Positions 13,736 to 50,397 of a DNA stretch of 57,082 nt are shown here, piece after piece. Made by a program: the position numbers and the translations under genes. The notes below the pieces were generated by a model that saw only the letters and a list, made by a program, of their open reading frames with translations, was not told the DNA's origin and made no database searches. The stretch spans positions 3,664 to 60,745 of the forward strand of contig DPVD01000106.1 of assembly GCA_003526745.1 (NCBI GenBank), given 5' to 3'. Source of the stretch: Candidatus Latescibacterota bacterium. GTDB taxonomy: Bacteria; Latescibacterota; UBA2968. How positions within the stretch are numbered: position 1 is the first letter of the stretch; every line of letters starts with the position of its first letter.

Positions 13736-14242
13736 ATGAACAAGACCGAAGCAAGAGGTCGAGTCGAGAGCCACGGAGAAGATCTTTGGTGGGTGACAGA
13801 GAGTTCGGAAAGGATCGGGAACATCGTCCGATGCTTTCCGGAATCCGCGCCTGACACATGGGTCAGTATCAGGTCGGATCAGGATGTCGAGCTTGTATTG
13901 GTTAGGCGTATTGCGGATCTGGACGAAACCTCAAGGAAGACAGTCGAGCCAGTCTTACGCGAGAAGTATCTTATTCCTGTGATCACACAGATTCTGTCGA
14001 TCGAAGGCTCCTCAGCAGGCAAGATGATTCGCGTCCAGACGACCGAAGTATCCGACACACTCGACGTAAACAGCGAAACTGACGTAGACTTCCGAGCCTA
14101 TCCAAGAATCCTCTTCAACGACCGCACAAAGCGCCGCAAGTACGTGATCGAAGACGCGGATGCCCTTGGCAAAACCAGCCAAGATCTGATCCGCCGCCAC
14201 CTCCGTCGATCGCGGGGCCGCCGCGGCAGAGGATTCCGGTAA
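13736..14242 (+). CDS. DUF1854 family protein (ABC-exporter-associated)
   Basis: 168 aa, 8 nt after the ABC exporter. RCFPESAPDTWVSIRS...ADLDETSRKTVEPVLREKYLIPVITQILSIE...KYVIEDADALGKTSQDLIRRHL fits the DUF1854 pattern, which normally follows this type of ABC gene. Confidence 0.65.
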   Translation: MNKTEARGRVESHGEDLWWVTESSERIGNIVRCFPESAPDTWVSIRSDQDVELVLVRRIADLDETSRKTVEPVLREKYLIPVITQILSIEGSSAGKMIRVQTTEVSDTLDVNSETDVDFRAYPRILFNDRTKRRKYVIEDADALGKTSQDLIRRHLRRSRGRRGRGFR

Positions 14243-14302
14243 ACAAAAGAGCCCGCTCCCCAATGGAAGACGGCCCAATTCCAAATCTTCGATTCTCGGT
14301 TT

Positions 14303-15802
14303 CTATCGCAATGGTCTTCGCATCGTGCCCGGAGCCTGTGCTGACTCGGATGCGCCCTTGATCTCCTCGACAAACGTCTCAACATCATCGTCATACGTAT
14401 CGAATGGGTCCCTGAAGCTCAGGTGATGCTCATTCTCCAAGTAAACGGAATCCCAATCGACGATGTATCTCAGGCGCTTCTCGGCCAGCACTTTTACGAG
14501 CGCGGATCGTCCCTTCGCTCGTGTATCCTGTGGAGGCTCCAAGTTCGCGCGATCGACTTCGTCATCCTTGATCACGCGTTGAATCCCGCCTTTCCGGTCT
14601 AGATCGTGATACAACCCTCTTTCCGGATTGATGTTATGATACTCCAAATCCAGACTCTGCAGCCAAGGATCTGACCAGTCCAATTTCTCTTCCTCGCGAA
14701 ATATGTCTAGCAGCCACTTCTTCGTGACCCAGTCGATCCGGTCCACACACTTCATAGGATCACTCTCTAGGTCATCAAGTATTCGCTCCCACTCGGTCAG
14801 AACCCAATCCGATTCGTCGTCGAGATCGGTCAGGTGCTTCTTGGCCAACTCCAGATAAGACCTCTGAATATCGATCGCCGAGATTGTCCTCCCACCCTTC
14901 CGCTCAAGGATCCACCTGTGCGTCGGATCACGTGAGACCTCCTTCAGTGCCCAAACGGGATCACCAAGACTAACGTCTTTCGGAAAAACCTTTCGCTCCA
15001 GCAGATTCAGAACCATCGCTGTTGTGCCGACTTTCAGTGCGTTCGCATACTCAGACATGTTCGAGTCGCCCAAGAGCAAGTGAAGTCGTCTGAACTTGCT
15101 GTGATCGGCCAGAGGCTCGTCTCGCGTGTTGATGATCGCGCGCGAGAACTGAATCCACTGATAGATCTCCGTCACAATATGGTCTGCGCGCTGTGAGATC
15201 TGGTATCCAACCGAATCCCCACGATGCGCGTCCTCCTGCTCGTCGCGCCCGTAGTAGTAGAAGCTGTCGTCGTAGCTTCCGACACGGCCAGCTCCGCTGA
15301 AGATCTGTCGTGTAACTAGGAACGGAAGTAGTGAAGGAATCACGACCGTAGAAAAAGGAACGTTCCTCCGAACGAGGTAGTTCTCGTGACATCCGAAGGT
15401 AGCACCCGTGAAGTGATCAACATTGTTCTTCAGGAACGCAGCTTCCTTCTCCAGACCGAGCGAATTCAGCGCCCGCTGCAGGATCCGTTCACCGGCACGG
15501 TCGTAAGCCACCACATCGAACAGCCCCATGCATTCGGGAGTCGCGTATTCGATGTGTCCCATGTCTATGTAGACACGGCCTGAGTTGAACAGGAACCCTC
15601 CGTTACCGGGGGGTTCATCGCGACCTCGATAGTGGATATCGACGATCCCGATCCGTTCCGAGTGGAAAATGTGGTCTTTGACCTTGACCGATATGGCATC
15701 CGGGCTAACGAAGCCCTCACGTTCGGGAGCCATACACCCGTATTCGGTCTCGAGGCCAAAAATGCGGCCAATCACATTGAACACCAAAAATGCCAGACCC
15801 AA
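14303..15802 (-). CDS. pafA: Pup/UBact ligase PafA homologue (carboxylate-amine ligase fold)
   Basis: 499 aa from TTG 15802; GTG 15775 (giving MIGRIFGLETEYG) is an alternative start. IFGLETEYG, NSGRVYIDMGHIEYATPEC and RLHLLLGDSNMSEYA are the Pup-ligase family motifs. It lacks the roughly 30-aa insertion seen in the paralogue at 17668..19215. Lies directly downstream of prcA. Confidence 0.85.
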   Translation of the reverse strand: MGLAFLVFNVIGRIFGLETEYGCMAPEREGFVSPDAISVKVKDHIFHSERIGIVDIHYRGRDEPPGNGGFLFNSGRVYIDMGHIEYATPECMGLFDVVAYDRAGERILQRALNSLGLEKEAAFLKNNVDHFTGATFGCHENYLVRRNVPFSTVVIPSLLPFLVTRQIFSGAGRVGSYDDSFYYYGRDEQEDAHRGDSVGYQISQRADHIVTEIYQWIQFSRAIINTRDEPLADHSKFRRLHLLLGDSNMSEYANALKVGTTAMVLNLLERKVFPKDVSLGDPVWALKEVSRDPTHRWILERKGGRTISAIDIQRSYLELAKKHLTDLDDESDWVLTEWERILDDLESDPMKCVDRIDWVTKKWLLDIFREEEKLDWSDPWLQSLDLEYHNINPERGLYHDLDRKGGIQRVIKDDEVDRANLEPPQDTRAKGRSALVKVLAEKRLRYIVDWDSVYLENEHHLSFRDPFDTYDDDVETFVEEIKGASESAQAPGTMRRPLR

Positions 15803-15839
15803 CTGGGCCCGGCATAGAGAGCGATCTGAAGGGGAAACA

Positions 15840-16616
15840 TCAGCCTATCAGCGCATCGATGGCGGCTTGAGTCTCCTCGGTCGGTAGTGTGCGATACTTC
15901 GACTTTGCGTTGCTGTTCCGGTCGAGAACGATAGCCTCGACTTCGAGGTCATCCTCCATAGCTTCTTTAAGGATACGCGTTATTTCTCCTGAAGGGACAC
16001 CATTATCTTCAATAGCCGACTCCTTCTGAAGACCGACATATCGGCCAGCTGCCCACCCTCGAAGAGCGGCTGAAAGGCTCGCCGGAAGGCCGGATTGCAC
16101 ACTATGGTCGCTCTTCAGCATCTGCTGCATCGTTCGATCGGCCTCCAGCGACCCGCCGATAGCTGCGTACGATTCGTGTGTCGCGAAGGACCCGTCGTAG
16201 TCAACGGTATAGAACAGTGATCCTTCGCATCCGTCGAGTTCCGCCAGCAGAATCCGCGCAATATAAGGGGACCGTATTATATCATCAAAGGACGCCTTCA
16301 CGGCAGGCCCGAGCCCAAAGTGTACGATCTGTTGAAGGGTCACGTCGGAATCCGAGTAGTTGAACCCGACGACGCTCGCCAGATCGACTGCAGCCTGTCT
16401 GAGTTTCTCGATATCCGTCGGGTGTCCGACCGATCCCATTGCGATCCGGTCATACGTCTCATACAGCTTTTTCTGACCGCGGCCCATCGTCACGAGCAGC
16501 AGACCCTCCCCATACTCAAGACCGACCACCGGACTCCCCCCTCGGAGCTGATCCTCAATGTAGTCACGTCGGTTCGAGACGGCTTCTGCAAAGCGATAAG
16601 GTTCGTCAAGCATCAT
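15840..16616 (-). CDS. prcA: bacterial 20S proteasome alpha subunit
   Basis: 258 aa. Ntn-hydrolase fold without an N-terminal Thr. GSPVVGLEYGEGLLLVT...LYETYDRIAMGSVGHPTDIEKLRQAAV parallels actinobacterial PrcA. A 15-nt spacer containing GAGG follows the prcB stop. Confidence 0.9.
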   Translation of the reverse strand: MMLDEPYRFAEAVSNRRDYIEDQLRGGSPVVGLEYGEGLLLVTMGRGQKKLYETYDRIAMGSVGHPTDIEKLRQAAVDLASVVGFNYSDSDVTLQQIVHFGLGPAVKASFDDIIRSPYIARILLAELDGCEGSLFYTVDYDGSFATHESYAAIGGSLEADRTMQQMLKSDHSVQSGLPASLSAALRGWAAGRYVGLQKESAIEDNGVPSGEITRILKEAMEDDLEVEAIVLDRNSNAKSKYRTLPTEETQAAIDALIG

Positions 16617-16631
16617 ACGAGAACGGCCTCG

Positions 16632-17468
16632 TTATCCTTCGTCTATGAATCGCGCGTGAAGCGCACGCAGATCATTCGCATCTACATTGGATATCCCGTC
16701 AGCGGTCACTGTTTTGACCGTCGGGAAGACGTCTGCACTTCGTTCGTATCTCCCCGTCGCTGAATCGTATTCGGAGGCCGTAAACAGAAGACGCAGCGAC
16801 AGCCCGATGGCCTCTTCTCTCGGGAGGTCCGAAAACCGGGTCTGCCCCCAGCGATTAAGGTGATACATCACACCCCGGATGGCGGGAGAACCCGAGCCTG
16901 TCGTCGTAAAGTCTGTGACTTCGAACTGTGCTCCAAGCGCATCATAGAAGAAGATCTTCCCGGCCTCGTCGCGACTATCGTAGATCGCAAAGATAGGGAT
17001 CACGGCACCTATCCCCTGGATGGCCATCGGAAGGTTATCGCGAATAAGGATCGAGAGCCGCCTGAGCTTTGCTTCGATGCTCATCTCGGTTAGCTGACGG
17101 CGGCGATGATACTGGAAGGAATGCTCCAGAATTCGGGCAATCTCGTAGGCCATAGCGGGAGAACCCGAGATCGCCATAACAGAGTGATCATCGATCGGCA
17201 GCACCTTGTCAGCTCGATCATAAATCACCGCATTCCCAGCAGTAGCCCGACGATCACCAGCAATAAGTACACCGTCGTCATAGCGAAGCGCTAAGATGGT
17301 TGTGCCTTCGGTCGGCGTAAACGCCGATCCCTGACCGGAGGAGACCTCGGCCACGACCTGGCCGGGAAAGTGATACCCGCCTGCTTTCAGGAGATCAAAG
17401 AAGTCGGCGCCCGGTCCAAGTGTGGGCAGGGCGCCGAAGTTGAATCCGTCACTTGATGAGTCGGGCAT
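16632..17468 (-). CDS. prcB: bacterial 20S proteasome beta subunit with propeptide
   Basis: 278 aa. A 55-aa propeptide ends ...TPTEG, followed by TTILALRYDDGVLIAGDRRATAGNAVIYDRADK. Counting from the predicted mature N-terminus (codon at 17301-17303), Thr1, Asp17 and Lys33 are all present. Confidence 0.92.
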   Translation of the reverse strand: MPDSSSDGFNFGALPTLGPGADFFDLLKAGGYHFPGQVVAEVSSGQGSAFTPTEGTTILALRYDDGVLIAGDRRATAGNAVIYDRADKVLPIDDHSVMAISGSPAMAYEIARILEHSFQYHRRRQLTEMSIEAKLRRLSILIRDNLPMAIQGIGAVIPIFAIYDSRDEAGKIFFYDALGAQFEVTDFTTTGSGSPAIRGVMYHLNRWGQTRFSDLPREEAIGLSLRLLFTASEYDSATGRYERSADVFPTVKTVTADGISNVDANDLRALHARFIDEG

Positions 17469-17650
17469 TATTCCCCGGTCCGCTGACGATACCTTCTGGC
17501 CTGGTTTGGATCGACGCGCCGCATACGTCGCATCAGGTCCTGCGTATCAGGCCTGTCTACCTTCGGACGGCTCGGACCCCCTTCGTCATCTTCAGGACGT
17601 AAGGGTTTGGTTGGACGCTGTTTTCTCTCGAATGAAACAAACCTGTCCAT
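17468..17650 (-). CDS. pup: UBact/Pup-type prokaryotic ubiquitin-like modifier, 60 aa, C-terminal Glu
   Basis: ORF track gives 17468..17671 (GTG). GGAGGA at 17657-17662 sits 6 nt before ATG 17650, giving MDRFVSFERKQRPTKPLRPEDDEGGPSRPKVDRPDTQDLMRRMRRVDPNQARRYRQRTGE. The ORF lies between dop and prcB, and its stop overlaps the prcB ATG (TAATG). Low complexity, no predicted fold. Confidence 0.8.
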   Translation of the reverse strand: MDRFVSFERKQRPTKPLRPEDDEGGPSRPKVDRPDTQDLMRRMRRVDPNQARRYRQRTGE

Positions 17651-17667
17651 AGTCATTCCTCCTATTA

Positions 17668-19215
17668 TCACGCCAGCGCAACCGGCTGGAGATCTGTAGC
17701 TCTCAAAGAATCAATTAATTGTTCAAGTGTACTGGACTCGTCGAGAATCGCGTTACAGGCCCGAGCAAGATCGGTTTCGACCATACCCCGAAGGTCCACC
17801 GCCTCGTATCGACCGTTAATAGAGAAAACAACGCGGTCCCAGTTGATTGACTTCACAGAGTCGCCAAACTTCTCGAGCGACCGTCCCCTGAAATAAGCTC
17901 GCGTTCCGACAGGTGGCGCCGCCATCGCTTCGGCGATCTCCTCATCCTCAACAAGCCTCAGAGTCTGACCCTCTGCTTCTAAAAGATAATAAAGACCACT
18001 CTCCCGGTCGACATTATGATACTCAAGATCCTGACTCTGCAGCCAGGTCATATCATCCGTGTTGTCCCAAGACAGGTCCTCCGCTTCCCGAAAACTGTCG
18101 ATCAGGAACTTCTTCGTAACCCAATCTATGCTCCCGATCAAGGACGCGTAGTCGGATTCAAGGGAATCGAGCGTCTGTTCCCACGCCTGAAGAACCCAGT
18201 CCGTTTCCGGGTCTTCGCCCGTGAAACGCTTCTGCGCCCGTCCAAGATATTCTCGCTGGATATCGACCGCGGGAATGAGACGGTTCGGAGATCCTTCGAC
18301 CTCGGCCAGCCATTGGTAAGTCTGATCCAGTGCGATGTTCCGCATGGCGGACACTGGATTCCGAAGCACGATATCCGGTAAGTCGTCCTGCTCGATCAAT
18401 CCCACGACCAAGGCCGTGGCCCCGACCTTCAGTGCCGTCGCGAACTCCGACATGTTGGAGTCACCGACGATCACGTGAAGCCTGCGGTATCGGTCGGAGT
18501 CGGCGTGCGGCTCGTCCCGCGTGTTCACAAGAGGTCGCTTGTGCATAGTATCGATGCTGGCGATCACTTCGAAGAACTCGGAACGCTGAGCAATCTGGAA
18601 AAGGCCGGCCTTCTTCCCGCGCTCTTCTCCAACCTTGCCCGCTCCCGCATAAATCTGCCGAGTGGCAAAGAACGGCAGCAACCCCTGAACGATCCGATCG
18701 AACGGCGTTATACGGGCCATCAGATAGTTCTCGTGGCATCCGTAGCTGTGGCCCTCGAAGTCCGTGTTGTTCTTGTACATCACAACACGTCCCGATCCGA
18801 GTGCTTCTGTTCGCCGATCAGCGCAGATACTGACGATTCGCTCCCCCGCCTTGTCCTGTGCGACGAGCTCGAACAGCCCGAGACATTCACCCGTCGCGTA
18901 TTCCGGATGGGTGTGATCGTTGTAGAATCGGGCGCCGTTGTAGATGATCAGGTCGCTCTTCAGCTCCTTGAACGGAATCTTTCGCTCCCGATCCTGCTGC
19001 AGATGGACCTTTTCGTCAGTGTCGTTCAGCAGCTCTTTAACTTCAAACCCCCGAGCGTCCTTGCGTGGATTTTCGAGCTTATAGTCCCAGAGCGGCACGA
19101 ATTCGGCATCAGAGTAACATCGAATCAGCTGCATGGACTCTTCGACGACGTCGATCTTGTCGACATCCTCAATCGTAATGCCGTACTCCGTTTCGATCCC
19201 GAAAAGCCTGTTCAT
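17668..19215 (-). CDS. dop: Dop homologue (deamidase/depupylase of Pup)
   Basis: 515 aa. LFGIETEYG, NGARFYNDHTHPEYATGEC and RLHVIVGDSNMSEFA are present. It carries an extra segment WDYKLENPRKDARGFEV..., which matches my memory of the M. tuberculosis Dop loop region (WDYEVESPLRDARGFDL). Sits immediately downstream of mpa and upstream of the modifier, as in actinobacteria. Confidence 0.88.
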   Translation of the reverse strand: MNRLFGIETEYGITIEDVDKIDVVEESMQLIRCYSDAEFVPLWDYKLENPRKDARGFEVKELLNDTDEKVHLQQDRERKIPFKELKSDLIIYNGARFYNDHTHPEYATGECLGLFELVAQDKAGERIVSICADRRTEALGSGRVVMYKNNTDFEGHSYGCHENYLMARITPFDRIVQGLLPFFATRQIYAGAGKVGEERGKKAGLFQIAQRSEFFEVIASIDTMHKRPLVNTRDEPHADSDRYRRLHVIVGDSNMSEFATALKVGATALVVGLIEQDDLPDIVLRNPVSAMRNIALDQTYQWLAEVEGSPNRLIPAVDIQREYLGRAQKRFTGEDPETDWVLQAWEQTLDSLESDYASLIGSIDWVTKKFLIDSFREAEDLSWDNTDDMTWLQSQDLEYHNVDRESGLYYLLEAEGQTLRLVEDEEIAEAMAAPPVGTRAYFRGRSLEKFGDSVKSINWDRVVFSINGRYEAVDLRGMVETDLARACNAILDESSTLEQLIDSLRATDLQPVALA

Positions 19216-19218
19216 CTG

Positions 19219-20862
19219 CTAGATAACGCTCTGCTGACTGCGTCGCTTAGTCGCCTCAGGACGAATCGGCGCAACCTTGACGACGTTCTCGGGTTCGTAA
19301 TCGAGGAGTTTCAACCAGTCTTCCGTGCTATCGTTGGGAGGAAATATCTCGTTCTCCGCATACTCTGTCGCAACAGCGTTCATCAAATCCTCTAGCGATA
19401 TCCCTTCGTCGTTCCCCGACGCAATCGACCTGAGGATCGCATACTCTTTCGCCCTTCGAACGATCGATTCGAGCACGGCGCCGCTGCAGAGATCCGCTCT
19501 GTGCAAAATCTCCTTCCGGCCGCTTTTAAGCGTCACTTCCAGGAAACGTGTGTCGTCTCGTCTGGCAAAAATCTCTTCCACCATCTCGTTGACGCAGTGA
19601 TCAATCGCATTGAGCTCGGATCCACTTTCCTCTAATCCAAGATCGATCGGCAAATCCGGCGTGAGGTAAATCTTCAGGATTTCGCCAGCGTCCGCCTTAC
19701 CTGGACGTGTGACCTTGATCTTTCGATCGATCCGTCCGGGCCGCAGGATGGCTGGATCGATAAGGTCTGGACGATTCGACGCCAGGATCAGAACCACGTC
19801 CTGCAGAGAATCGATCCCATCCATCTCGGCGCAGAACATCGGGACAACGGTATTCGATATGCTGTGTGACCGCATCGCACGACGCGTTCCCAAGATCGAC
19901 TCAGCCTCGTCGATAAACACAACGGGCAAATACCCCTCTTTACGTTTTTCACGAGCCCGACTGAAGATCTCCCGTACTTGGCGCTCGGACTCACCCAGCC
20001 ACATGTTCAGGATCTCGGGACCCTTGATGTGCATGAAGCACTGCTTCATATCCCGATTACCCTCCCGTTGGGCTTGGAGTGCCAAGTTGTAAGCCGTCGC
20101 CTTGCCGATACGTGTTTTCCCGCATCCCGGCGGACCATACAACAAAAAGCCTTTGGGAGTGCTGTACTGAAACCTCTCGAAGAGCTCAGGATGTAGAACG
20201 GGCATTTCGATCGTGTCTTTGATCGCGTGTATGGCTTCTTCTTGGCCTCCAATCCTCTCCCAAGGCAGATCCGGAATCTCCTCGAGGTAGTAGTCGCTAA
20301 CCTCGGGGTTGTCGATCCGCTCAATGGCCACGCGGAAGCTCGGATCTACACGCACGTCCTCGCCCACCTTCAGATCCTCGTCTAGCAGCAGAGTCGACCG
20401 GGACAGGATGGTGGACTGGGCCCCGTGCTCCTGTCCGACACGAATTCGGCCGTCCTTCAGCACATCCGTGATCTTCGCGATGGAGCCCGCGAACTGATAC
20501 CCGAGACAACCGACGACGGCGAACGCTTCGTTCACCCGAACACGACTACCGACCTCCAGATCGTCCGCGTTGATTCGGGCATCGACATTTGCGTAATATT
20601 CCGACCCTCCAACCGAGATACAGGCGACCCCGTTCTTGGGCGGCTCTAGTAGCGTCCCAATCCGGTTCGCAGGACCCGTCACCTTCTCCAGTGCCCCTTC
20701 AAGCTCGACGATCGTTCGGCGCGCCTCTTCAAAGGTGATCTCGTCTTCCTGGAGTTGGCGCCTTAGTTGATACAGCAGGGATCGACGTTTGTCTTTCTCG
20801 TCCATCGACATGAGGATCTGGTCGATGAGCGACAGGGACTGAAACGTATGCTGCATGTCCAC
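19219..20862 (-). CDS. mpa: proteasome-associated AAA+ ATPase (Mpa/ARC)
   Basis: 547 aa (GTG 20862 or ATG 20856). N-terminal coiled-coil-like segment, an OB-type middle region, Walker A GPPGCGKT and Walker B VVFIDEAES. First gene of the operon; its stop lies 3 nt before the dop ATG. Confidence 0.9.
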   Translation of the reverse strand: MDMQHTFQSLSLIDQILMSMDEKDKRRSLLYQLRRQLQEDEITFEEARRTIVELEGALEKVTGPANRIGTLLEPPKNGVACISVGGSEYYANVDARINADDLEVGSRVRVNEAFAVVGCLGYQFAGSIAKITDVLKDGRIRVGQEHGAQSTILSRSTLLLDEDLKVGEDVRVDPSFRVAIERIDNPEVSDYYLEEIPDLPWERIGGQEEAIHAIKDTIEMPVLHPELFERFQYSTPKGFLLYGPPGCGKTRIGKATAYNLALQAQREGNRDMKQCFMHIKGPEILNMWLGESERQVREIFSRAREKRKEGYLPVVFIDEAESILGTRRAMRSHSISNTVVPMFCAEMDGIDSLQDVVLILASNRPDLIDPAILRPGRIDRKIKVTRPGKADAGEILKIYLTPDLPIDLGLEESGSELNAIDHCVNEMVEEIFARRDDTRFLEVTLKSGRKEILHRADLCSGAVLESIVRRAKEYAILRSIASGNDEGISLEDLMNAVATEYAENEIFPPNDSTEDWLKLLDYEPENVVKVAPIRPEATKRRSQQSVI

Positions 20863-21502
20863 ATAGTCTTGTAGGAAGTCGTCGGGCGACTTGCGCTGGC
20901 GGCTATCATCATCTTGAGAGTTGATAGGTCACCCCCATAGGAGTTTAAGTCGGGAAAGGTTGACCAATGGGCTTAGTTTAGCACACCCATACCCGGGTGT
21001 CAAGACGACCCAGAATCATTATTTCAATGTAAAACAATATGTTACAACAAAAAACCGCCTCCTAGCCACGGAGCCGGTGAGGAAAGTAGGTAGCCTTCGT
21101 GGTTCAGGCCAAAAGGTCGATCCCCCCCGAAGATGGCGCGTGCTGCAATCCTGGATCTGGAGACTCCTCGTTGCCTGAGTCCGTTCCCCGTCCTCTTCTT
21201 TGAGCACCGTGGTCACGGGTATTCTGTTCCTCAATTTTTCTGTCGGGGTCCATTCGATCGGAAGGCAAGGGGCGAGAAGTGTCCTCGGCACGCTGGATAG
21301 CCAGCGATGATGCGGCGCCCTGAACAGTATCAGCCCCATCCCTAATTAAGAGGTTATGTTGCCTCGAAGCCTCTAACGTAACGAGACGGAAGTTCTCCTG
21401 AAATTCTACAGCTCGCACCTGCATATCGCGATTACCTGGGTTGGCCAGATGTTGATTACCTACATTAAAAAGTTATCCGGCTCGAAGGCAAAAGTCAACG
21501 GG

Positions 21503-38334: not shown

Positions 38335-38408
38335 TGGCTGCCGGGCAGGGATTCGAACCCCGATAGGCGGCTCCAAAAGCCGCTGTCTTACCCTTAGACG
38401 ACCCGGCA
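38335..38408 (-). tRNA. tRNA-Gln (anticodon UUG), CCA encoded
   Basis: Minus-strand read: TGCCGGG TC GTCT AAGGGTA AGAC A GCGGC TTTTGGA GCCGC CTAT CGGGG TTCGAAT CCCTG CCCGGCA G CCA. Clean cloverleaf with a U1-A72 pair and G73, as in bacterial tRNA-Gln. Confidence 0.9.
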
Positions 38409-46929: not shown

Positions 46930-47865
46930 TTACGCGCGCGGATGGAAAGTCTTGTGGACCTCCTTCAGATATTCCCGATCGATGTGCGTATAGATCTGTG
47001 TCGTCGAAATATCCGCGTGGCCGAGCATCTCCTGTACTGCACGCAGATCTGCTCCGCCCTCAAGTAGATGTGTCGCGAAAGAATGTCGCATCGTATGAGG
47101 GCTGACGGTCTTCCCGATCCCGGCAGCGAGCACGTACTTCCTAAGTAGCTTATGGATTCCCATCCTCGAAAGTCTTCCCCCCCTAAAATTCAGGAAGAGG
47201 TTCGGTGGCGAATCCGGCTTCACCAAATTGGCACGCCCTGATGACGTATACCGGGTGACCCAACTCTGGGCCTGCGAGCCAACAGGAACAATCCGCTCCT
47301 TGCTGCCTTTCCCGAACACGCGCACCACACCCACGTAGAACACGAGTTGGCTCGGTTTCAGATCGACCGCCTCGGACACCCGCAACCCGACGCCATACAT
47401 CATCTCTAAAAGGGCACGATCGCGCAGCCCAAGGTCGGTCTCCACATCGGGCATATCGAGCAGCGTCTGAACTTCGTCGACCGACAGTACCTCGGGCAGC
47501 TTCCTCCCAACCTTCGGCGGGCGCTGATTCTCTGTAGGATCCGAATCGCGAATCCCTTCGGTCACGAGAAATTTGTGGAACACCCTCACCGCCGTCAGAT
47601 TTCGTGCTACGCTTGACGGGGCCAGACCGACGTCATCGAGTTGACGCACGAACTCGGAAACATCCTTTGCCTGAATCGATATCACCGAATCGAGTCTACG
47701 CTCGAACATGATCTGGAGATACCGGACCAGATCTCGCTCATAGGCCTCGACGGAGTGATCAGATAGGCCCTTCTCAAGACGCACATAGTCCAGAAACTGG
47801 CATAGAGGCCAGCTCAGGGACTCTGGTATTTCGAGCTGGGTCAAACCTGAGCGCACGCCGTCCAC
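46930..47865 (-). CDS. xerD: tyrosine recombinase XerD/XerC-type
   Basis: 311 aa, GTG start. N-terminal SAM-like core-binding domain (FLDYVRLEKGLSDHSVEAYERDL). Catalytic region GLRVSE...HTMRHSFATHLLEGGADLRAVQEMLGHADISTTQIYTH. Confidence 0.88.
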   Translation of the reverse strand: MDGVRSGLTQLEIPESLSWPLCQFLDYVRLEKGLSDHSVEAYERDLVRYLQIMFERRLDSVISIQAKDVSEFVRQLDDVGLAPSSVARNLTAVRVFHKFLVTEGIRDSDPTENQRPPKVGRKLPEVLSVDEVQTLLDMPDVETDLGLRDRALLEMMYGVGLRVSEAVDLKPSQLVFYVGVVRVFGKGSKERIVPVGSQAQSWVTRYTSSGRANLVKPDSPPNLFLNFRGGRLSRMGIHKLLRKYVLAAGIGKTVSPHTMRHSFATHLLEGGADLRAVQEMLGHADISTTQIYTHIDREYLKEVHKTFHPRA

Positions 47866-47870
47866 GACGG

Positions 47871-48353
47871 CTACAGGACCAGCGAGAGCTGCGGCATCTC
47901 AAGACCAAGCAAAGCTCGCTTCCACGCCAGCCCGCCTCTGAACCCTGTCAAGTCGCCCGACGATCCGACGACTCGGTGACACGGAACAATCAGCGGCAGC
48001 GGATTCTTATTGAGCGCCATACCAACGGCACGCGACGCGGTCACATCCTGCCCAATCCTCTCTGCGATTTCACCGTAGCTGACGGTCTCGCCATACGGAA
48101 CAACAAGAGTTGTCCGCCAGACGTTCATCTGGAAAGCGCTCCCTTCAGGTATCCGTTCGAAAGGCGTAAGCACTTGGCGGTCGCCATCCAAATACGCCGC
48201 CAAACCTTTCGCAACATCTCTTGCAAACGGAGGCACTTCTCTGACCTTGTGTTCACGCTCGCTGTATCGCCCGAACACGATCCGGTCGAGTATCGAGCCA
48301 TTCCACACGGTCTTTAGCTCCCCAAACCGGGTATGTATAATCACCTCACTCAT
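47871..48353 (-). CDS. ogt: methylated-DNA--protein-cysteine methyltransferase
   Basis: ORF 47871..48380; likely start ATG 48353 (MSEVIIHT...). Active site IVPCHRVVGSSGDLTGFRGG; VSYGEIAERIG helix. Confidence 0.9.
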   Translation of the reverse strand: MSEVIIHTRFGELKTVWNGSILDRIVFGRYSEREHKVREVPPFARDVAKGLAAYLDGDRQVLTPFERIPEGSAFQMNVWRTTLVVPYGETVSYGEIAERIGQDVTASRAVGMALNKNPLPLIVPCHRVVGSSGDLTGFRGGLAWKRALLGLEMPQLSLVL

Positions 48354-50397
48354 CCGGGGCTCCTGCCAGAGTGTGCACAATCTGTTCGGCCAGCTTTAGC
48401 CCTAGGCCCTCAACGGCCTGGACATCTTCAAGTGACGCTTCCCGAAGTCGCTTCATCGATCCGAAATGGCGAAGCAGCAGCTTCCGTCTCGCAGGCCCAA
48501 CACCTTCTATCTCCTCGAGCGTGGAGTGCAGCGTCCGCTTCGCTCGAACCTGGCGATGGAAAGAAACGGCAAACCGATGTGACTCGTCCCGGAGCGCCTG
48601 AAGGAGCTTCAACGAACTCGACACTTTCGGGATGTTCTGCGGATACGAATGGCCGGGGATGAAGACCTCTTCAAGCCTTTTGGCCAGACCAATCGCGGGC
48701 TGGTCCTTGATACCCAACGAACTCAACGCACTGATCGCGCTCGACAACTGACCTTTTCCACCATCGATCAGAAGCAGATCTGGAAATGCCCTACCTTCCT
48801 GCTGCAGCCGTCTGAACCGACGCGTCACTACCTGGTGCATCATGGCGAAGTCATTCGGTCCCTCGATCCCCGTGATCTTGTAGTGACGGTAGTTCTTCTT
48901 TGAAGGCCTGCCGTCGATGAAACAGACAACCGACGCGACCGGATCCTGTCCCTGAATGTTCGAAATATCCATAGCTTCGATCCTACGAGGTGGAGCATCG
49001 AGATTCAGATCACGCTGCAGCGAACTGACCAACGCCGGGACCTGCTTCCTCCTGTTTTCCCTCTTGAGACGTCGTTCGGTCAAAAGAAGACCGGCGTTGC
49101 TTTCCGCCATCTTCATCAACTGAGCCTTATCGCCTCGCTGGGGTACCTTGATCGTCACCGGGCCTCCCGCTCGGTCGTCAAGCCACTCGCGAATCGTCTC
49201 CTCGTCGTCCACATCCACGGAGACGTAGATTTCGCGCGGCACAAACGAAGCCGTCAGGTAGAACAATCGCAGGAATGACGATCGTATCTCGGCCTCTGGT
49301 GCATCCAAGACGCCTCCGATGAAATAGTGCTGTCTCCCGATCAGTCGGCCTTCACGGATCTCCATGACAACGCCGCAGGCTTCTTCATCCTCTCGGAAGA
49401 TCGCGATCAGATCCCAATCGGCATGATCTGTCGACATCATCTTCTGGCGGTTGGTCACGCGCTTGAGCGCGTCCAGCCGATCCCTGAAGATCGCAGCCTC
49501 TTCGAAGCGAAGCTCCTCGGAGGCTCTGTCCATCTCTCCCCGCATGATCCTCGCAACCTCCCTACGTCGCCCGCTCAGGAAGAGAACGGCCTCATCGATC
49601 AGCTTCTTGTAGTTCTCGGACGTAATCAGATCTTCGCACGGGCCGTCACAGCGTCCGATCTCGTAGTCGATGCAGAGACGCACATTCTTGTTCGGCAGAG
49701 CGTAGTCGCAACTTCTGACGCGGAACAGCTTGTGCATAAGATTCAGCATGTTCCGCATAGCCTTGACGTCCGTGTATGGACCAAGATACCGGCCTCCGTC
49801 CTTCTCGACATCGCGTGTCACGATGATCCGGGGGAACGGTTCAGCCGTCACTTTGATATACGGGTACTTCTTGTCATCCTTCAGCGTGATGTTGTAGCGC
49901 GGCTTGTGCTCCTTAACCAGATTCGATTCGAGAATCAGGGCCTCTCGATCCGAATCGGTCACGATATATTCGACTTCCCTAACGTTCCCGACGAGTGCCA
50001 GGAATTGTCCGCGACCGTCGAATGCGCGCGGCGTGAAGTAGGAACGGACGCGGCTTCGCAGCGACTTCGCCTTGCCTATGTATATGAGCTTACCTCCGGC
50101 GTCACGCATCAGGTACACACCCGGCGCACGAGGCAGATGGTCGAGTGCCTCTCTCAGTGCCGACTGCGCCTGGCGGCGGTCGACCTTAAAGTAGGACGAT
50201 ATATGACCTTGCGATAGACTGTCCAAGATCCGTTCTCGCGCTTCTTGGGAGAGGGTTGGTAAGAGAACTGGAAGTGCTGGCCTTGGGACGCGAGCACTGA
50301 GTAGAAGATTCTGCCGGATGTCTTCCTTGTATTTCGCGCCCGCCAAAACGCCGCAGTGTCGACAACGCAATATCACTGTCCGCCGCACTCGAACCAC
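48346..50397 (-). CDS. uvrC: excinuclease ABC subunit C
   Basis: GIY-YIG domain (PGVYLMRDAGGKLIYIGKAKSLRSRVRSYF), UVR motif (EELRFEEAAIFRDRL), RNase-H-like endonuclease domain and a C-terminal (HhH)2 (IEGVGPARRKLLLRHFGS). The annotated start gives an unusual 80-aa leader; in-frame TTG at 50226 is a more typical start. Confidence 0.92.
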   Translation of the reverse strand: MVRVRRTVILRCRHCGVLAGAKYKEDIRQNLLLSARVPRPALPVLLPTLSQEARERILDSLSQGHISSYFKVDRRQAQSALREALDHLPRAPGVYLMRDAGGKLIYIGKAKSLRSRVRSYFTPRAFDGRGQFLALVGNVREVEYIVTDSDREALILESNLVKEHKPRYNITLKDDKKYPYIKVTAEPFPRIIVTRDVEKDGGRYLGPYTDVKAMRNMLNLMHKLFRVRSCDYALPNKNVRLCIDYEIGRCDGPCEDLITSENYKKLIDEAVLFLSGRRREVARIMRGEMDRASEELRFEEAAIFRDRLDALKRVTNRQKMMSTDHADWDLIAIFREDEEACGVVMEIREGRLIGRQHYFIGGVLDAPEAEIRSSFLRLFYLTASFVPREIYVSVDVDDEETIREWLDDRAGGPVTIKVPQRGDKAQLMKMAESNAGLLLTERRLKRENRRKQVPALVSSLQRDLNLDAPPRRIEAMDISNIQGQDPVASVVCFIDGRPSKKNYRHYKITGIEGPNDFAMMHQVVTRRFRRLQQEGRAFPDLLLIDGGKGQLSSAISALSSLGIKDQPAIGLAKRLEEVFIPGHSYPQNIPKVSSSLKLLQALRDESHRFAVSFHRQVRAKRTLHSTLEEIEGVGPARRKLLLRHFGSMKRLREASLEDVQAVEGLGLKLAEQIVHTLAGAPDE

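What the first reader, a model, noticed from the sequence alone, without database searches (positions are those of the whole stretch)
14303..20862. Complete, tightly coupled ubiquitin-like tagging plus 20S proteasome operon (mpa-dop-modifier-prcB-prcA-pafA) in a diderm-looking genome
Seen: six co-directional minus-strand genes with spacers of 3 nt, 17 nt, a 1-nt overlap (TAATG), 15 nt and at most 37 nt. PrcB keeps Thr1/Asp17/Lys33 behind a 55-aa propeptide. Both ligase-fold paralogues keep the ETEYG, HxEY and GDSNMSE motifs, and Mpa has intact Walker A and B. Established: the Pup-proteasome system is a hallmark of Actinobacteria (also Nitrospirae). A divergent UBact version has been reported by comparative genomics in several Gram-negative and candidate phyla, and to my knowledge has not been characterised biochemically. 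Inference: the neighbours (T9SS-type sorting-domain proteins, a sigma-54 EBP, a LolA-like protein, a periplasmic HtrA) argue for a diderm, FCB-like uncultivated lineage. Here pafA is fused into the same operon directly after prcA, whereas in actinobacteria as I recall it pafA is separated from prcA by other genes. That makes this a self-contained six-gene tagging-and-degradation module in an unexpected host.
Basis: partly seen in the sequence, partly recalled or inferred. Interest (0 to 1): 0.85.

Follow-up and report, generated by a model that had tools for sequence, protein, structure and literature searches.

The report
UBact tagging and proteasome operon
This is an intact six-gene operon for a bacterial ubiquitin-like tag (UBact), its ligase and remover, an unfoldase and a 20S proteasome in a marine Latescibacterota genome. 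It is a typical member of a system already catalogued in hundreds of Gram-negative genomes, though none has been studied biochemically.

Summary
Six co-directional minus-strand genes (14303-20925) encode an Mpa-type AAA ATPase, a Dop-type depupylase, a 60-aa modifier, PrcB, PrcA and a PafA-type ligase.

- **Modifier:** it scores above the curated cut-offs of Pfam PF20513 and NCBIfam NF033388, so it is a true UBact. It ends in RTGE.
- **Host:** a marine Latescibacterota lineage (FCB group), not an actinobacterium. The locus recurs in independent assemblies, so it is not chimeric.
- **Novelty is low.** A scan of species-representative genomes found at least 536 UBact loci. All 79 complete loci that I analysed have the same gene order, so pafA directly after prcA is the family norm. 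NCBI already labels UBact proteins from Latescibacteria.
- **Literature:** I found no biochemical study of UBact in the searchable papers.

Some details were new to me:
- mpa probably starts at a conserved non-canonical ATC/ATT codon, 21 codons upstream of the first canonical start (GTG 20862), 23 upstream of the public calls' ATG.
- A terminator-like hairpin sits between prcA and pafA.
- UBact-type Mpa ends in V-I instead of the actinobacterial GQYL.
- The PafA-type paralogue has its own alpha-loop sequence.

Verdict: an ordinary new member of a known kind.

The parts
19219..20925 (-). mpa: proteasomal AAA+ ATPase with an N-terminal coiled-coil, two OB domains and an AAA domain. It would be 568 aa if translation starts at ATC 20925. 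The first canonical start is GTG 20862, and public gene calls use ATG 20856 (545 aa).
   Evidence: - Pfam hits: Prot_ATP_ID_OB_N, Prot_ATP_ID_OB_C and AAA.
- TIGR03689 scores 461 bits, below its 505 cut-off.
- The best solved relative is Mtb Mpa, E 1e-99.
- Walker A/B, pore loop and Arg fingers are conserved in 78 of 78 orthologues.
17668..19215 (-). dop: Dop-type depupylase (de-UBactylase), 515 aa, with the Dop loop.
   Evidence: - PF03136 scores 514 bits. TIGR03688 (Dop) scores 439 against 359 for TIGR03686 (PafA).
- A. cellulolyticus Dop is the best solved relative, E 2e-113, aligned from residue 1 to 471.
- It carries the Dop-specific residues S27, I31, I84, H95, F208, V211 and K220, plus a 59-residue Dop-loop region.
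17468..17650 (-). ubact: 60-aa modifier ending in RTGE. The AGGAGG Shine-Dalgarno sequence lies at 17663-17658.
   Evidence: - PF20513 scores 76.7 bits (cut-off 27.8). NF033388 scores 78.4 bits (cut-off 35).
- The C-terminal half is nearly invariant across 32 homologues.
- 109 of 120 homologues end in RTGE and 10 in RTGQ.
16632..17468 (-). prcB: 20S beta subunit with a 55-aa propeptide. Its ATG overlaps the ubact stop codon by 1 nt.
   Evidence: - PF00227 E 1e-28; TIGR03690 scores 175 bits (cut-off 192).
- The best solved relatives are the Rhodococcus and Mtb beta subunits, E 4e-30.
- Thr1, Asp17 and Lys33 are invariant.
15840..16616 (-). prcA: divergent 20S alpha subunit, 258 aa.
   Evidence: - PF00227 E 4e-7; TIGR03691 scores 70 bits (cut-off 139).
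- The best solved relatives are the Rhodococcus and Mtb alpha subunits, E 3e-13.
14303..15775 (-). pafA: PafA-type ligase paralogue, 490 aa from GTG 15775. The open frame runs up to TTG 15802.
   Evidence: - PF03136 scores 482 bits. TIGR03686 (PafA) scores 378 and TIGR03688 (Dop) 371, nearly tied.
- It has no Dop loop.
- It carries the PafA-specific F41, F54, D-M-G, H188, S200 and D439, and a PafA-type C-terminal DPF helix.
- In a 121-sequence NJ tree it falls on the PafA side, with 56% bootstrap.
- Foldseek's top hits are PafA 4b0t and 4bjr.
20975..21003 (-). Promoter-like site: TTGACA, 17 nt, then TG-extended TAAACT, upstream of mpa.
   Evidence: - It matches 10 of 12 consensus positions.
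- The same TTGAC...TGCTAAACT is found upstream of mpa in the distant Latescibacterota loci L010 and L017.
- The number of promoter-like sites in the whole scanned region is not above chance.
20929..20936 (-). Shine-Dalgarno-like GGGGGTGA, 3 nt before the proposed ATC start of mpa.
   Evidence: A GGAGGTGA-like element followed by AT[C/T/A] occurs in 15 of 16 distinct Latescibacterota loci. The remaining locus (L011) has ATG at that position.
21048..21078 (-). Terminator-like hairpin plus T-run. It ends the upstream transcription unit, just before the operon's promoter.
   Evidence: Seen in the sequence and in the fold. The energy z-score is only -0.75, so the assignment rests on its shape and position.
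15780..15815 (-). 11-bp hairpin (15790-15815) followed by TTTTTGGTGTT, lying between the prcA stop and the pafA start. It could be an attenuator or partial terminator, or an mRNA 3'-end stabiliser.
   Evidence: - Found by the terminator scan.
- Folding energy -25.9 kcal/mol, z-score -2.4.
- The hairpin and T-run are kept, with changed stem bases, in the closest relatives L007 and L008. They are absent from more distant loci.
14241..14276 (-). Terminator-like hairpin plus UUUUGUUU after the pafA stop, at the convergent end of the operon.
   Evidence: Seen in the fold. It is not energetically exceptional (z-score +0.7), so the assignment rests on shape and position only.

Best explanation
This is a UBact-type ubiquitin-like tagging and proteasomal degradation operon in a marine Latescibacterota bacterium.

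**Inferred mechanism, by homology with the actinobacterial Pup-proteasome system**
1. The 60-aa, largely disordered UBact ends in Glu (RTGE), so it needs no deamidation before use.
2. The PafA-type enzyme uses ATP to phosphorylate the side-chain carboxylate of that terminal Glu. It then joins it to a lysine of a target protein.
3. The N-terminal coiled-coil of the hexameric Mpa-type ATPase binds the tag. The ATPase unfolds the substrate through its MWLG pore loops.
4. The unfolded chain is fed into an alpha7-beta7-beta7-alpha7 20S particle. The beta subunits of that particle activate themselves by cutting off a 55-aa propeptide to expose Thr1.
5. The Dop-type enzyme reverses the tagging.

**Transcription:** the six genes probably form one unit. 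It would run from a TTGACA/TGnTAAACT promoter at about 21000 to a terminator-like hairpin at about 14250. An internal hairpin before pafA may lower ligase expression relative to the upstream genes.

**Shown here:** gene content, order and intactness; family membership of every part; catalytic residues; host lineage; conservation of the layout.

**Inferred only:** all enzymatic steps, the substrates, the physiological role and the transcript structure.
For: - **Family membership:** the modifier scores above the curated cut-offs for UBact. For all five other proteins, the best solved relatives are the actinobacterial Pup-proteasome components.
- **Catalytic and ATPase residues:** Thr1, Asp17 and Lys33, Walker A/B, the pore loop, the Arg fingers and the catalytic Asp of both ligase-fold enzymes are conserved.
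- **Dop versus PafA:** the assignment rests on the Dop loop and the diagnostic residues of Hecht et al. 2020 (PMC7947786). A 121-sequence NJ tree and Foldseek agree.
- **Conserved layout:** 79 of 79 complete loci in Latescibacterota, Poribacteria and Verrucomicrobia have the identical gene order. The flanking genes are not conserved across phyla, so the six genes are the functional unit.
- **Real locus:** the same arrangement occurs on 14 contigs from four data sources.
- **Prior descriptions:** non-actinobacterial Pup/PafA/proteasome neighbourhoods were described by Iyer et al. 2008 (PMC2588565).
Against: - **No experiments:** no UBact system has been tested in any paper I could search.
- **Below equivalog cut-offs:** all five non-modifier proteins score below the NCBIfam equivalog cut-offs.
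- **Ambiguous ligase paralogue:**
  - By overall similarity it is no closer to actinobacterial PafA than to Dop: phmmer gives 238 against 294 bits, and profile scores are 321 against 339 bits.
  - It lacks the two conserved alpha-loop threonines.
  - Its orthology split has only 56% bootstrap.
- **Missing docking motif:** Mpa lacks the GQYL tail that actinobacterial Mpa needs to open the 20S gate (PMC8142254).
- **Opposite charge:** UBact is basic (net +6). From my own recollection, not checked here, Pup is acidic. If so, binding cannot be identical in detail.
- **Weak regulatory evidence:** the promoter and terminator calls are pattern matches only.
Confidence: 0.85

Rival explanations
1. The two ligase-fold paralogues arose by a duplication independent of the actinobacterial Dop/PafA split. 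In that case the division of labour (which one ligates, which one removes, or whether both do both) cannot be read from the actinobacterial names.
For: - A small NJ tree of 28 sequences grouped the two UBact-locus paralogues together against the actinobacterial pair, with 72% bootstrap.
- The PafA-like paralogue is 47% identical to its neighbouring Dop-like gene but only 39% identical to C. glutamicum PafA.
- C. glutamicum PafA scores higher against the UBact-locus Dop profile (347 bits) than against the PafA-like profile (321 bits).
- The alpha-loop of the PafA-like paralogue resembles neither enzyme.
Against: - With 121 sequences, the best NJ tree separates (PafA-like + actinobacterial PafA) from (both Dop groups). 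That split has 56% bootstrap, against 25.5% for the rival split.
- The PafA-like paralogue shares derived PafA characters: loss of the Dop loop, F41, F54, D-hydrophobic-G after the catalytic Asp, H188, S200, D439 and the C-terminal DPF helix.
- The ML tree of Hecht et al. 2020 places Nitrospirae Dop and PafA in the respective actinobacterial clusters.
Confidence: 0.12
2. The cluster is an assembly chimera, contamination, or a very recent transfer from an actinobacterium. It would then not be a native system of a diderm host.
For: NCBI records for the same contig carry conflicting phylum labels, Gemmatimonadetes and Candidatus Latescibacteria. Nothing else points this way.
Against: - GC stays at 0.54-0.56 across 13-23 kb, with no break.
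- The same genes and flanks are found on contigs from ENA, NCBI, JGI and Logan assemblies of different samples.
- The proteins are 75-85% identical to those of other Latescibacterota, but only 31-48% identical to actinobacterial ones.
- UvrC from the far side of the window finds Latescibacterota as its nearest named relatives.
- The modifier is of UBact type, not Pup type.
Confidence: 0.01
3. The tag has mainly a non-degradative, regulatory role, and the proteasome works largely without it. Pupylation persists in actinobacteria that have lost the proteasome genes, which shows that the two can be separated.
For: - Mpa lacks the GQYL or penultimate-Tyr docking motif.
- A terminator-like hairpin partly uncouples pafA from the other five genes.
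- Reviews note that pupylation and proteasomal degradation are separable in actinobacteria (PMC8223512; PMC6466877).
Against: - The tag, ligase, remover, unfoldase and protease are strictly linked in 79 of 79 loci. This argues for one coupled pathway.
- The conserved ...V-I tail, present in 70 of 78 orthologues, is itself under selection and could be an alternative docking motif.
Confidence: 0.1

Closest known systems
UBact loci of Gram-negative phyla
   Same: - The modifier belongs to the same family, scoring above the curated cut-offs of PF20513 and NF033388, and has the R-T-G-[E/Q] end.
- The six genes are the same and in the same order, Mpa-Dop-UBact-PrcB-PrcA-PafA, in every complete locus I fetched.
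- Key references are Lehmann et al. 2017 (BBRC 483:946), the earlier neighbourhood description by Iyer et al. 2008 (PMC2588565) and De Mot 2007.
   Different: - Nothing differs at the level of the system.
- The host phylum, Latescibacterota, is not among the phyla I recall from the 2017 paper, which I could not read. NCBI does already annotate UBact in Latescibacteria.
- Three details are specific to this clade or phylum: the ATC start of mpa, a 2-nt shorter spacer between the Shine-Dalgarno sequence and that start, and the prcA-pafA hairpin.
Actinobacterial Pup-proteasome system (M. tuberculosis Rv2115c mpa, Rv2112c dop, Rv2111c pup, Rv2110c prcB, Rv2109c prcA, Rv2097c pafA)
   Same: - All six components are homologous.
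- The catalytic residues are shared.
- The order mpa-dop-modifier-prcB-prcA is the same.
- The modifier ends in G-[E/Q], ready for ligation through the Glu side chain.
   Different: - The modifier ends in RTGE and is basic, and it matches UBact rather than Pup.
- pafA is adjacent to prcA, and there is no pafBC.
- Mpa ends in QSVI instead of GQYL.
- The alpha-loop of the ligase is HIVTEIYQWIQFSR, not H-x-W-E-G-x-SSATTRSR.
- All five non-modifier proteins fall below the NCBIfam equivalog cut-offs.
- The host is a diderm.
Archaeal PAN-20S proteasome
   Same: Both have an AAA+ unfoldase with a coiled-coil and OB domains, and a Thr1 20S particle. The weaker family hits are to PAN and to the archaeal alpha and beta subunits.
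   Different: - Archaea tag proteins with beta-grasp SAMP/ubiquitin-like proteins through E1-type chemistry (established knowledge, not tested here).
- This system uses a disordered tag and a glutamine-synthetase-fold ligase.
- PAN docks with a hydrophobic-Tyr-X tail (PMC8142254). This Mpa has no penultimate Tyr.

Membership tests
UBact-type tagging/proteasome locus | A small modifier that matches the curated UBact models above their cut-offs | tested here: met
   PF20513 scores 76.7 bits (cut-off 27.8). NF033388 scores 78.4 bits (cut-off 35).
UBact-type tagging/proteasome locus | A conserved C-terminal ...RRYRQRTG[E/Q] that ends in a Glu or Gln available for conjugation | tested here: met
   The window protein ends in RRYRQRTGE. 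Positions R53 to G59 are invariant in 32 homologues. 109 of 120 homologues end in RTGE and 10 in RTGQ.
UBact-type tagging/proteasome locus | Two Pup_ligase-fold paralogues flanking the modifier and 20S genes, in the order Mpa-Dop-UBact-PrcB-PrcA-PafA | tested here: met
   PF03136 scores 514 and 482 bits. The order is identical in 79 of 79 complete loci.
UBact-type tagging/proteasome locus | An active-type 20S beta subunit (Thr1, Asp17, Lys33 behind a propeptide) together with an alpha subunit | tested here: met
UBact-type tagging/proteasome locus | Covalent attachment of UBact to lysines, followed by Mpa/20S-dependent degradation | not testable with these tools
   This needs biochemistry. I found no published test for any UBact system.
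Actinobacterial Pup-proteasome system in the strict sense | A Pup-family modifier with a GG[E/Q] C-terminus | tested here: not met
   Only the UBact models hit at E up to 0.01, and no Pup model does. The C-terminus is RTGE.
Actinobacterial Pup-proteasome system in the strict sense | Each component reaches its NCBIfam equivalog cut-off (TIGR03689, 03688, 03686, 03690, 03691) | tested here: not met
   The scores are 461 against a cut-off of 505, 439 against 492, 378 against 551, 175 against 192, and 70 against 139.
Actinobacterial Pup-proteasome system in the strict sense | An Mpa C-terminal GQYL motif (penultimate Tyr) for opening the 20S gate | tested here: not met
   The window Mpa ends in QSVI. 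None of the 78 UBact-locus orthologues has a penultimate Tyr, and 70 of 78 end in V-I. The motif definition is from PMC8142254.
Dop (depupylase) subfamily, for the gene at 17668-19215 | A Dop loop, D-H-A/T-H after the catalytic Asp, and the Dop-specific residues of Hecht et al. 2020 | tested here: met
   The Dop-loop region is 59 residues long and carries a WDY..ENP..DARGF motif aligned to that of A. cellulolyticus Dop. Residues S27, I31, I84, H95, F208, V211 and K220 are present.
PafA (ligase) subfamily, for the gene at 14303-15775 | No Dop loop, D-V-G-S-H after the catalytic Asp, a PafA-type alpha-loop (H-x-W-E-G-x-SSATT-R-S), Asp439, and clustering with PafA | tested here: inconclusive
   - Met: no Dop loop, F41, F54, D-M-G (with the Ser missing), H188, S200, D439 and the C-terminal DPF helix.
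- Not met: the rest of the alpha-loop, including the two Thr, and A74 (which is Pro).
- The tree places it on the PafA side with only 56% bootstrap.
- The HMM scores are nearly tied.

The most novel reading that the evidence does not exclude
UBact-type systems may differ mechanistically from the actinobacterial model, in ways this locus would make testable:
- The unfoldase may dock on the 20S particle through a conserved ...V-I tail that lacks the penultimate Tyr.
- The ligase may use a different alpha-loop, without the two conserved Thr, to handle a basic tag rather than an acidic one.
- In Latescibacterota, the unfoldase gene starts at a conserved AUC/AUU codon behind a perfect Shine-Dalgarno sequence. 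This would place the amount of proteasomal ATPase under initiation-factor-dependent translational control, as for infC in E. coli.
Probability: 0.3. Interest if true: 0.5.

Novelty: new member of a known kind. Interest (0 to 1): 0.25.

Why it matters
- It adds one more intact example to a system that is widespread in Gram-negative and candidate phyla but, as far as I could find, has never been reconstituted.
- Any such locus could serve as a template for the first biochemical test of UBact. This one has no special advantage over the hundreds of others, and its host is uncultivated.
- The comparative details found here are cheap to test:
  - the non-canonical mpa start, which public gene calls miss, so they truncate the protein by 23 residues;
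  - the V-I tail of Mpa;
  - the distinct alpha-loop of the ligase.
- These details would sharpen the comparison between UBact and Pup systems.

Tried and rejected
- **Small tree:** a 28-sequence NJ tree with only three actinobacterial references grouped the two UBact-locus paralogues together with 72% bootstrap. I set it aside as under-sampled after a 121-sequence tree gave the opposite best topology. Neither tree is strongly supported.
- **Reciprocal profile scoring** did not separate PafA from Dop for the second paralogue.
- **AlphaFold model of the PafA-type protein:**
  - Mean pLDDT is 65, and the alpha-loop region is below 50. The predicted helix there is not usable evidence.
  - Foldseek puts PafA only marginally ahead of Dop.
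- **Lehmann et al. 2017** could not be read, so its phylum list and gene-order statement are from my memory only.
- **Literature searches** for UBact biochemistry found only passing citations.
- **Flanking genes:** clustering the flanks of 73 loci found no accessory gene shared across phyla.
- **Rfam** found nothing in or around the operon. The only hit in the window is a tRNA at 38338-38408.
- **Promoter and terminator scans** are not enriched over shuffled sequence. Individual sites are proposed only where position and conservation support them.
- **First Python tree attempt** timed out.

Full report
**1. The observation**

The spacers match: 3 nt, 17 nt (counting from the ATG at 17650, which lies 7 nt after an AGGAGG), a 1-nt TAATG overlap, and 15 nt.

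The last spacer is 37 nt only for the longest ORF. The two closest relatives start pafA three codons before the conserved RIFG. That corresponds to GTG 15775 in the window, giving a 490-aa protein (the NCBI call) and a 64-nt spacer.

- Thr1 is residue 56 of PrcB, behind a 55-aa propeptide. Thr1, Asp17 and Lys33 are invariant in 86 of 86 family sequences.
- Both ligase-fold proteins have GxETEYG, HxEY and GDSNMSE.
- Mpa has GPPGCGKT, VVFIDE, an MWLG pore loop and RPGRID. All four are conserved in 78 of 78 orthologues.

**2. What the genes are**

- **Modifier.** Pfam and NCBIfam place it in UBact above the curated cut-offs: PF20513 at 76.7 bits against 27.8, and NF033388 at 78.4 against 35.
- **Large paralogues.** Both belong to Pup_ligase (514 and 482 bits).
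- **Remaining three.** They fall in the proteasomal ATPase OB/AAA family and the proteasome subunit family.
- **Solved relatives.** In every case the nearest solved structure is the actinobacterial counterpart:
  - A. cellulolyticus Dop, E 2e-113;
  - Mtb Mpa, E 1e-99;
  - Rhodococcus or Mtb beta subunit, E 4e-30, and alpha subunit, E 3e-13.
- **Divergence.** None of the five non-modifier proteins reaches its NCBIfam equivalog cut-off. They are relatives of the actinobacterial proteins, not members of those families in the strict sense.

**3. Host and integrity**

- The identical Dop protein is encoded on 14 contigs from ENA (Tara Oceans), NCBI (GCA_002714465.1), JGI and Logan assemblies. The neighbours are the same on all of them.
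- GC is flat across the region. The locus is therefore not a chimera.
- NCBI labels the same proteins both 'Gemmatimonadetes bacterium' and 'Candidatus Latescibacteria bacterium'.
- The nearest named relatives of PafA are Latescibacterota at 75-81% identity. For UvrC, 30 kb away, they are Latescibacterota at 81-85%. Latescibacterota belongs to the FCB group.
They are two T9SS sorting-domain proteins, a sigma-54 activator, an HtrA-type protease, a TPR protein with a BamD/YfiO-like domain, L9, S6, UvrC and HisD.

**4. How common the arrangement is**

- I scanned one genome per species with an alignment of UBact homologues. The best 80 came from Latescibacterota, Poribacteria and Verrucomicrobia.
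- Among those 80 and the six contigs carrying the window's own locus, 79 show Mpa-Dop-UBact-PrcB-PrcA-PafA. The other seven are truncated or have split matches, and are consistent with the same order.
- The flanking genes are lineage-specific.
- In M. tuberculosis, by contrast, pafA (Rv2097c) lies about a dozen genes from prcA (Rv2109c) and shares an operon with pafBC (PMC8223512).
It is a property of the whole UBact family, not of this window.
- Pup/PafA/proteasome neighbourhoods in verrucomicrobia and nitrospirae were described in 2008 (PMC2588565). NCBI's pipeline already names 'ubiquitin-like protein UBact' in Latescibacteria and Poribacteria.

**5. Which paralogue does what**

I used the diagnostic positions of Hecht et al. 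2020 (PMC7947786).

*The gene next to mpa (17668-19215) is an unambiguous Dop.*
- It has the Dop loop, with a conserved WDY..ENP..DARGF.
- It has D-H-T-H after the catalytic Asp.
- It has S27, I31, I84, F208, V211 and K220.
- Its TIGR score for Dop exceeds that for PafA by 80 bits.

*The last gene (14303-15775) is less clear.*
- Its TIGR scores for PafA and Dop are nearly tied, at 378 and 371 bits.
- phmmer and profile scores even favour Dop.
- A small tree grouped it with its own neighbour.

*Evidence that the last gene is a PafA:*
- It has lost the Dop loop.
- It has F41, F54, D-M-G after the catalytic Asp, H188, S200, D439 and a PafA-type C-terminal DPF helix. These are conserved in 75-77 of 77 family members.
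- With 121 sequences drawn from representatives of 50%-identity clusters, the best NJ tree puts it on the PafA side. That split has 56% bootstrap, against 25.5% for the alternative.
- Foldseek ranks PafA structures first, though from a low-confidence model.

I read this gene as the ligase with about 0.8 confidence. Its alpha-loop, HIVTEIYQWIQFSR, lacks the two threonines conserved in both actinobacterial enzymes. Hecht et al. identify the alpha-loop as the main discriminator between ligase and hydrolase.

**6. Mechanism**

By homology, the pathway would run as follows:
- UBact ends in Glu and can be used without deamidation.
- The PafA-type enzyme ligates it to target lysines.
- The Mpa-type hexamer recognises the tag and unfolds the substrate into the 20S particle.
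- Dop removes the tag.

Only the gene content, the residues and the conservation are shown here. The chemistry is inferred.

Two points caution against assuming identity with the Pup system:
- UBact is basic (net +6).
- Mpa ends in QSVI. Across 78 orthologues, 70 end in V-I and none has the penultimate Tyr of the GQYL motif.

**7. Regulatory anatomy**

- A hairpin plus T-run at 21048-21078 follows the upstream ORF.
- A TTGACA-17-TG-TAAACT site at 20975-21003 follows that hairpin. The same site is shared with distant Latescibacterota loci.
- The conserved peptide PINSQDDDSRQRKSPDDFLQDY lies in frame upstream of the annotated mpa start.
  - It shows 12 synonymous against 3 non-synonymous codon changes between the window and L008.
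  - In the window, a TGA stop lies one codon before an ATC, and there is no canonical start between that stop and GTG 20862.
  - In 15 of 16 distinct Latescibacterota loci, an AT[C/T/A] codon follows a GGAGGTGA-like Shine-Dalgarno sequence by 3-9 nt. In the sixteenth locus that codon is ATG.
  - I conclude that mpa starts at ATC 20925 and that public calls truncate the protein by 23 residues.
- Between prcA and pafA there is an 11-bp hairpin followed by TTTTTGGTGTT (folding energy -25.9 kcal/mol, z-score -2.4). It is kept with changed stem bases in the two nearest relatives only.
- A further hairpin plus U-run follows the pafA stop.

**8. Verdict**

The finding is real and correctly interpreted. 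It is an ordinary member of a catalogued system. The interest lies in the family being uncharacterised, not in this locus.

Noticed in passing
window 20863-20936 (-); also L008, L010-L017, L033, L040, L044, L054, L059, L063: mpa appears to start at a conserved non-canonical ATC/ATT/ATA codon (ATG in one locus). The codon lies 3-9 nt after a GGAGGTGA-like Shine-Dalgarno sequence, 21 codons upstream of the first canonical start. The region between is conserved as protein. Public gene calls (545 aa) miss it.
   Followed up: yes
window 15780-15815 (-); L007, L008: An 11-bp hairpin plus T-run lies in the prcA-pafA spacer, just before the likely pafA start. It is kept with changed stem bases in the two nearest relatives and is absent from more distant loci. 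This spacer is the most variable one in the family, ranging from overlap to more than 300 nt.
   Followed up: partly
window 19219-19230 (-), the Mpa C-terminus; 78 orthologues in L001-L086: UBact-locus Mpa proteins end in a basic linker followed by x-V-I (70 of 78). None has the penultimate Tyr of the actinobacterial GQYL gate-opening motif.
   Followed up: partly
window about 15130-15180 (-), residues 199-212 of the 490-aa PafA-type protein: The alpha-loop of the PafA-type paralogue is a family-specific HIVTEIY[QE]WIQFSR. It is nearly invariant in 77 sequences and lacks the Thr-Thr pair conserved in both actinobacterial PafA and Dop.
   Followed up: partly
window 21104-21424 (-): A 106-aa ORF with no Pfam match lies directly upstream of the operon. 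Its N-terminal half is conserved (29-48% identity) near mpa in eight other Latescibacterota loci, sometimes with another gene in between. Its function is unknown.
   Followed up: partly
window 14303-20862; NCBI records HCK09220-HCK09225 and MBE83379-MBE83383: The public annotation of this locus is poor. Mpa and Dop are called 'peptidase', PrcB is called 'proteasome subunit alpha', and PrcA and PafA are 'hypothetical protein'. The same contig is labelled Gemmatimonadetes in one record and Candidatus Latescibacteria in another.
   Followed up: partly
representatives P0288-P0436: The Pup_ligase family is far larger and more varied than Dop plus PafA. There are 5822 clusters at 50% identity with E up to 1e-3. 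Several classes have motifs after the catalytic Asp that match neither enzyme, such as YYDTGHAEW, or YVDMGHPEY combined with long loops.
   Followed up: no
L054, about 359 nt between prcA and pafA: One Latescibacterota locus has a C/T-rich tandem-repeat array (units such as CGTCTTCTCGCGCTTTT and TCGTTCTCTCG) filling the prcA-pafA spacer.
   Followed up: no
window 46930-48380 (-) and 38338-38408 (-): A tyrosine recombinase (Phage_integrase fold, XerC/D-like) sits next to an O6-methylguanine methyltransferase and uvrC. A single tRNA gene lies at 38338-38408. Neither is connected to the operon.
   Followed up: no
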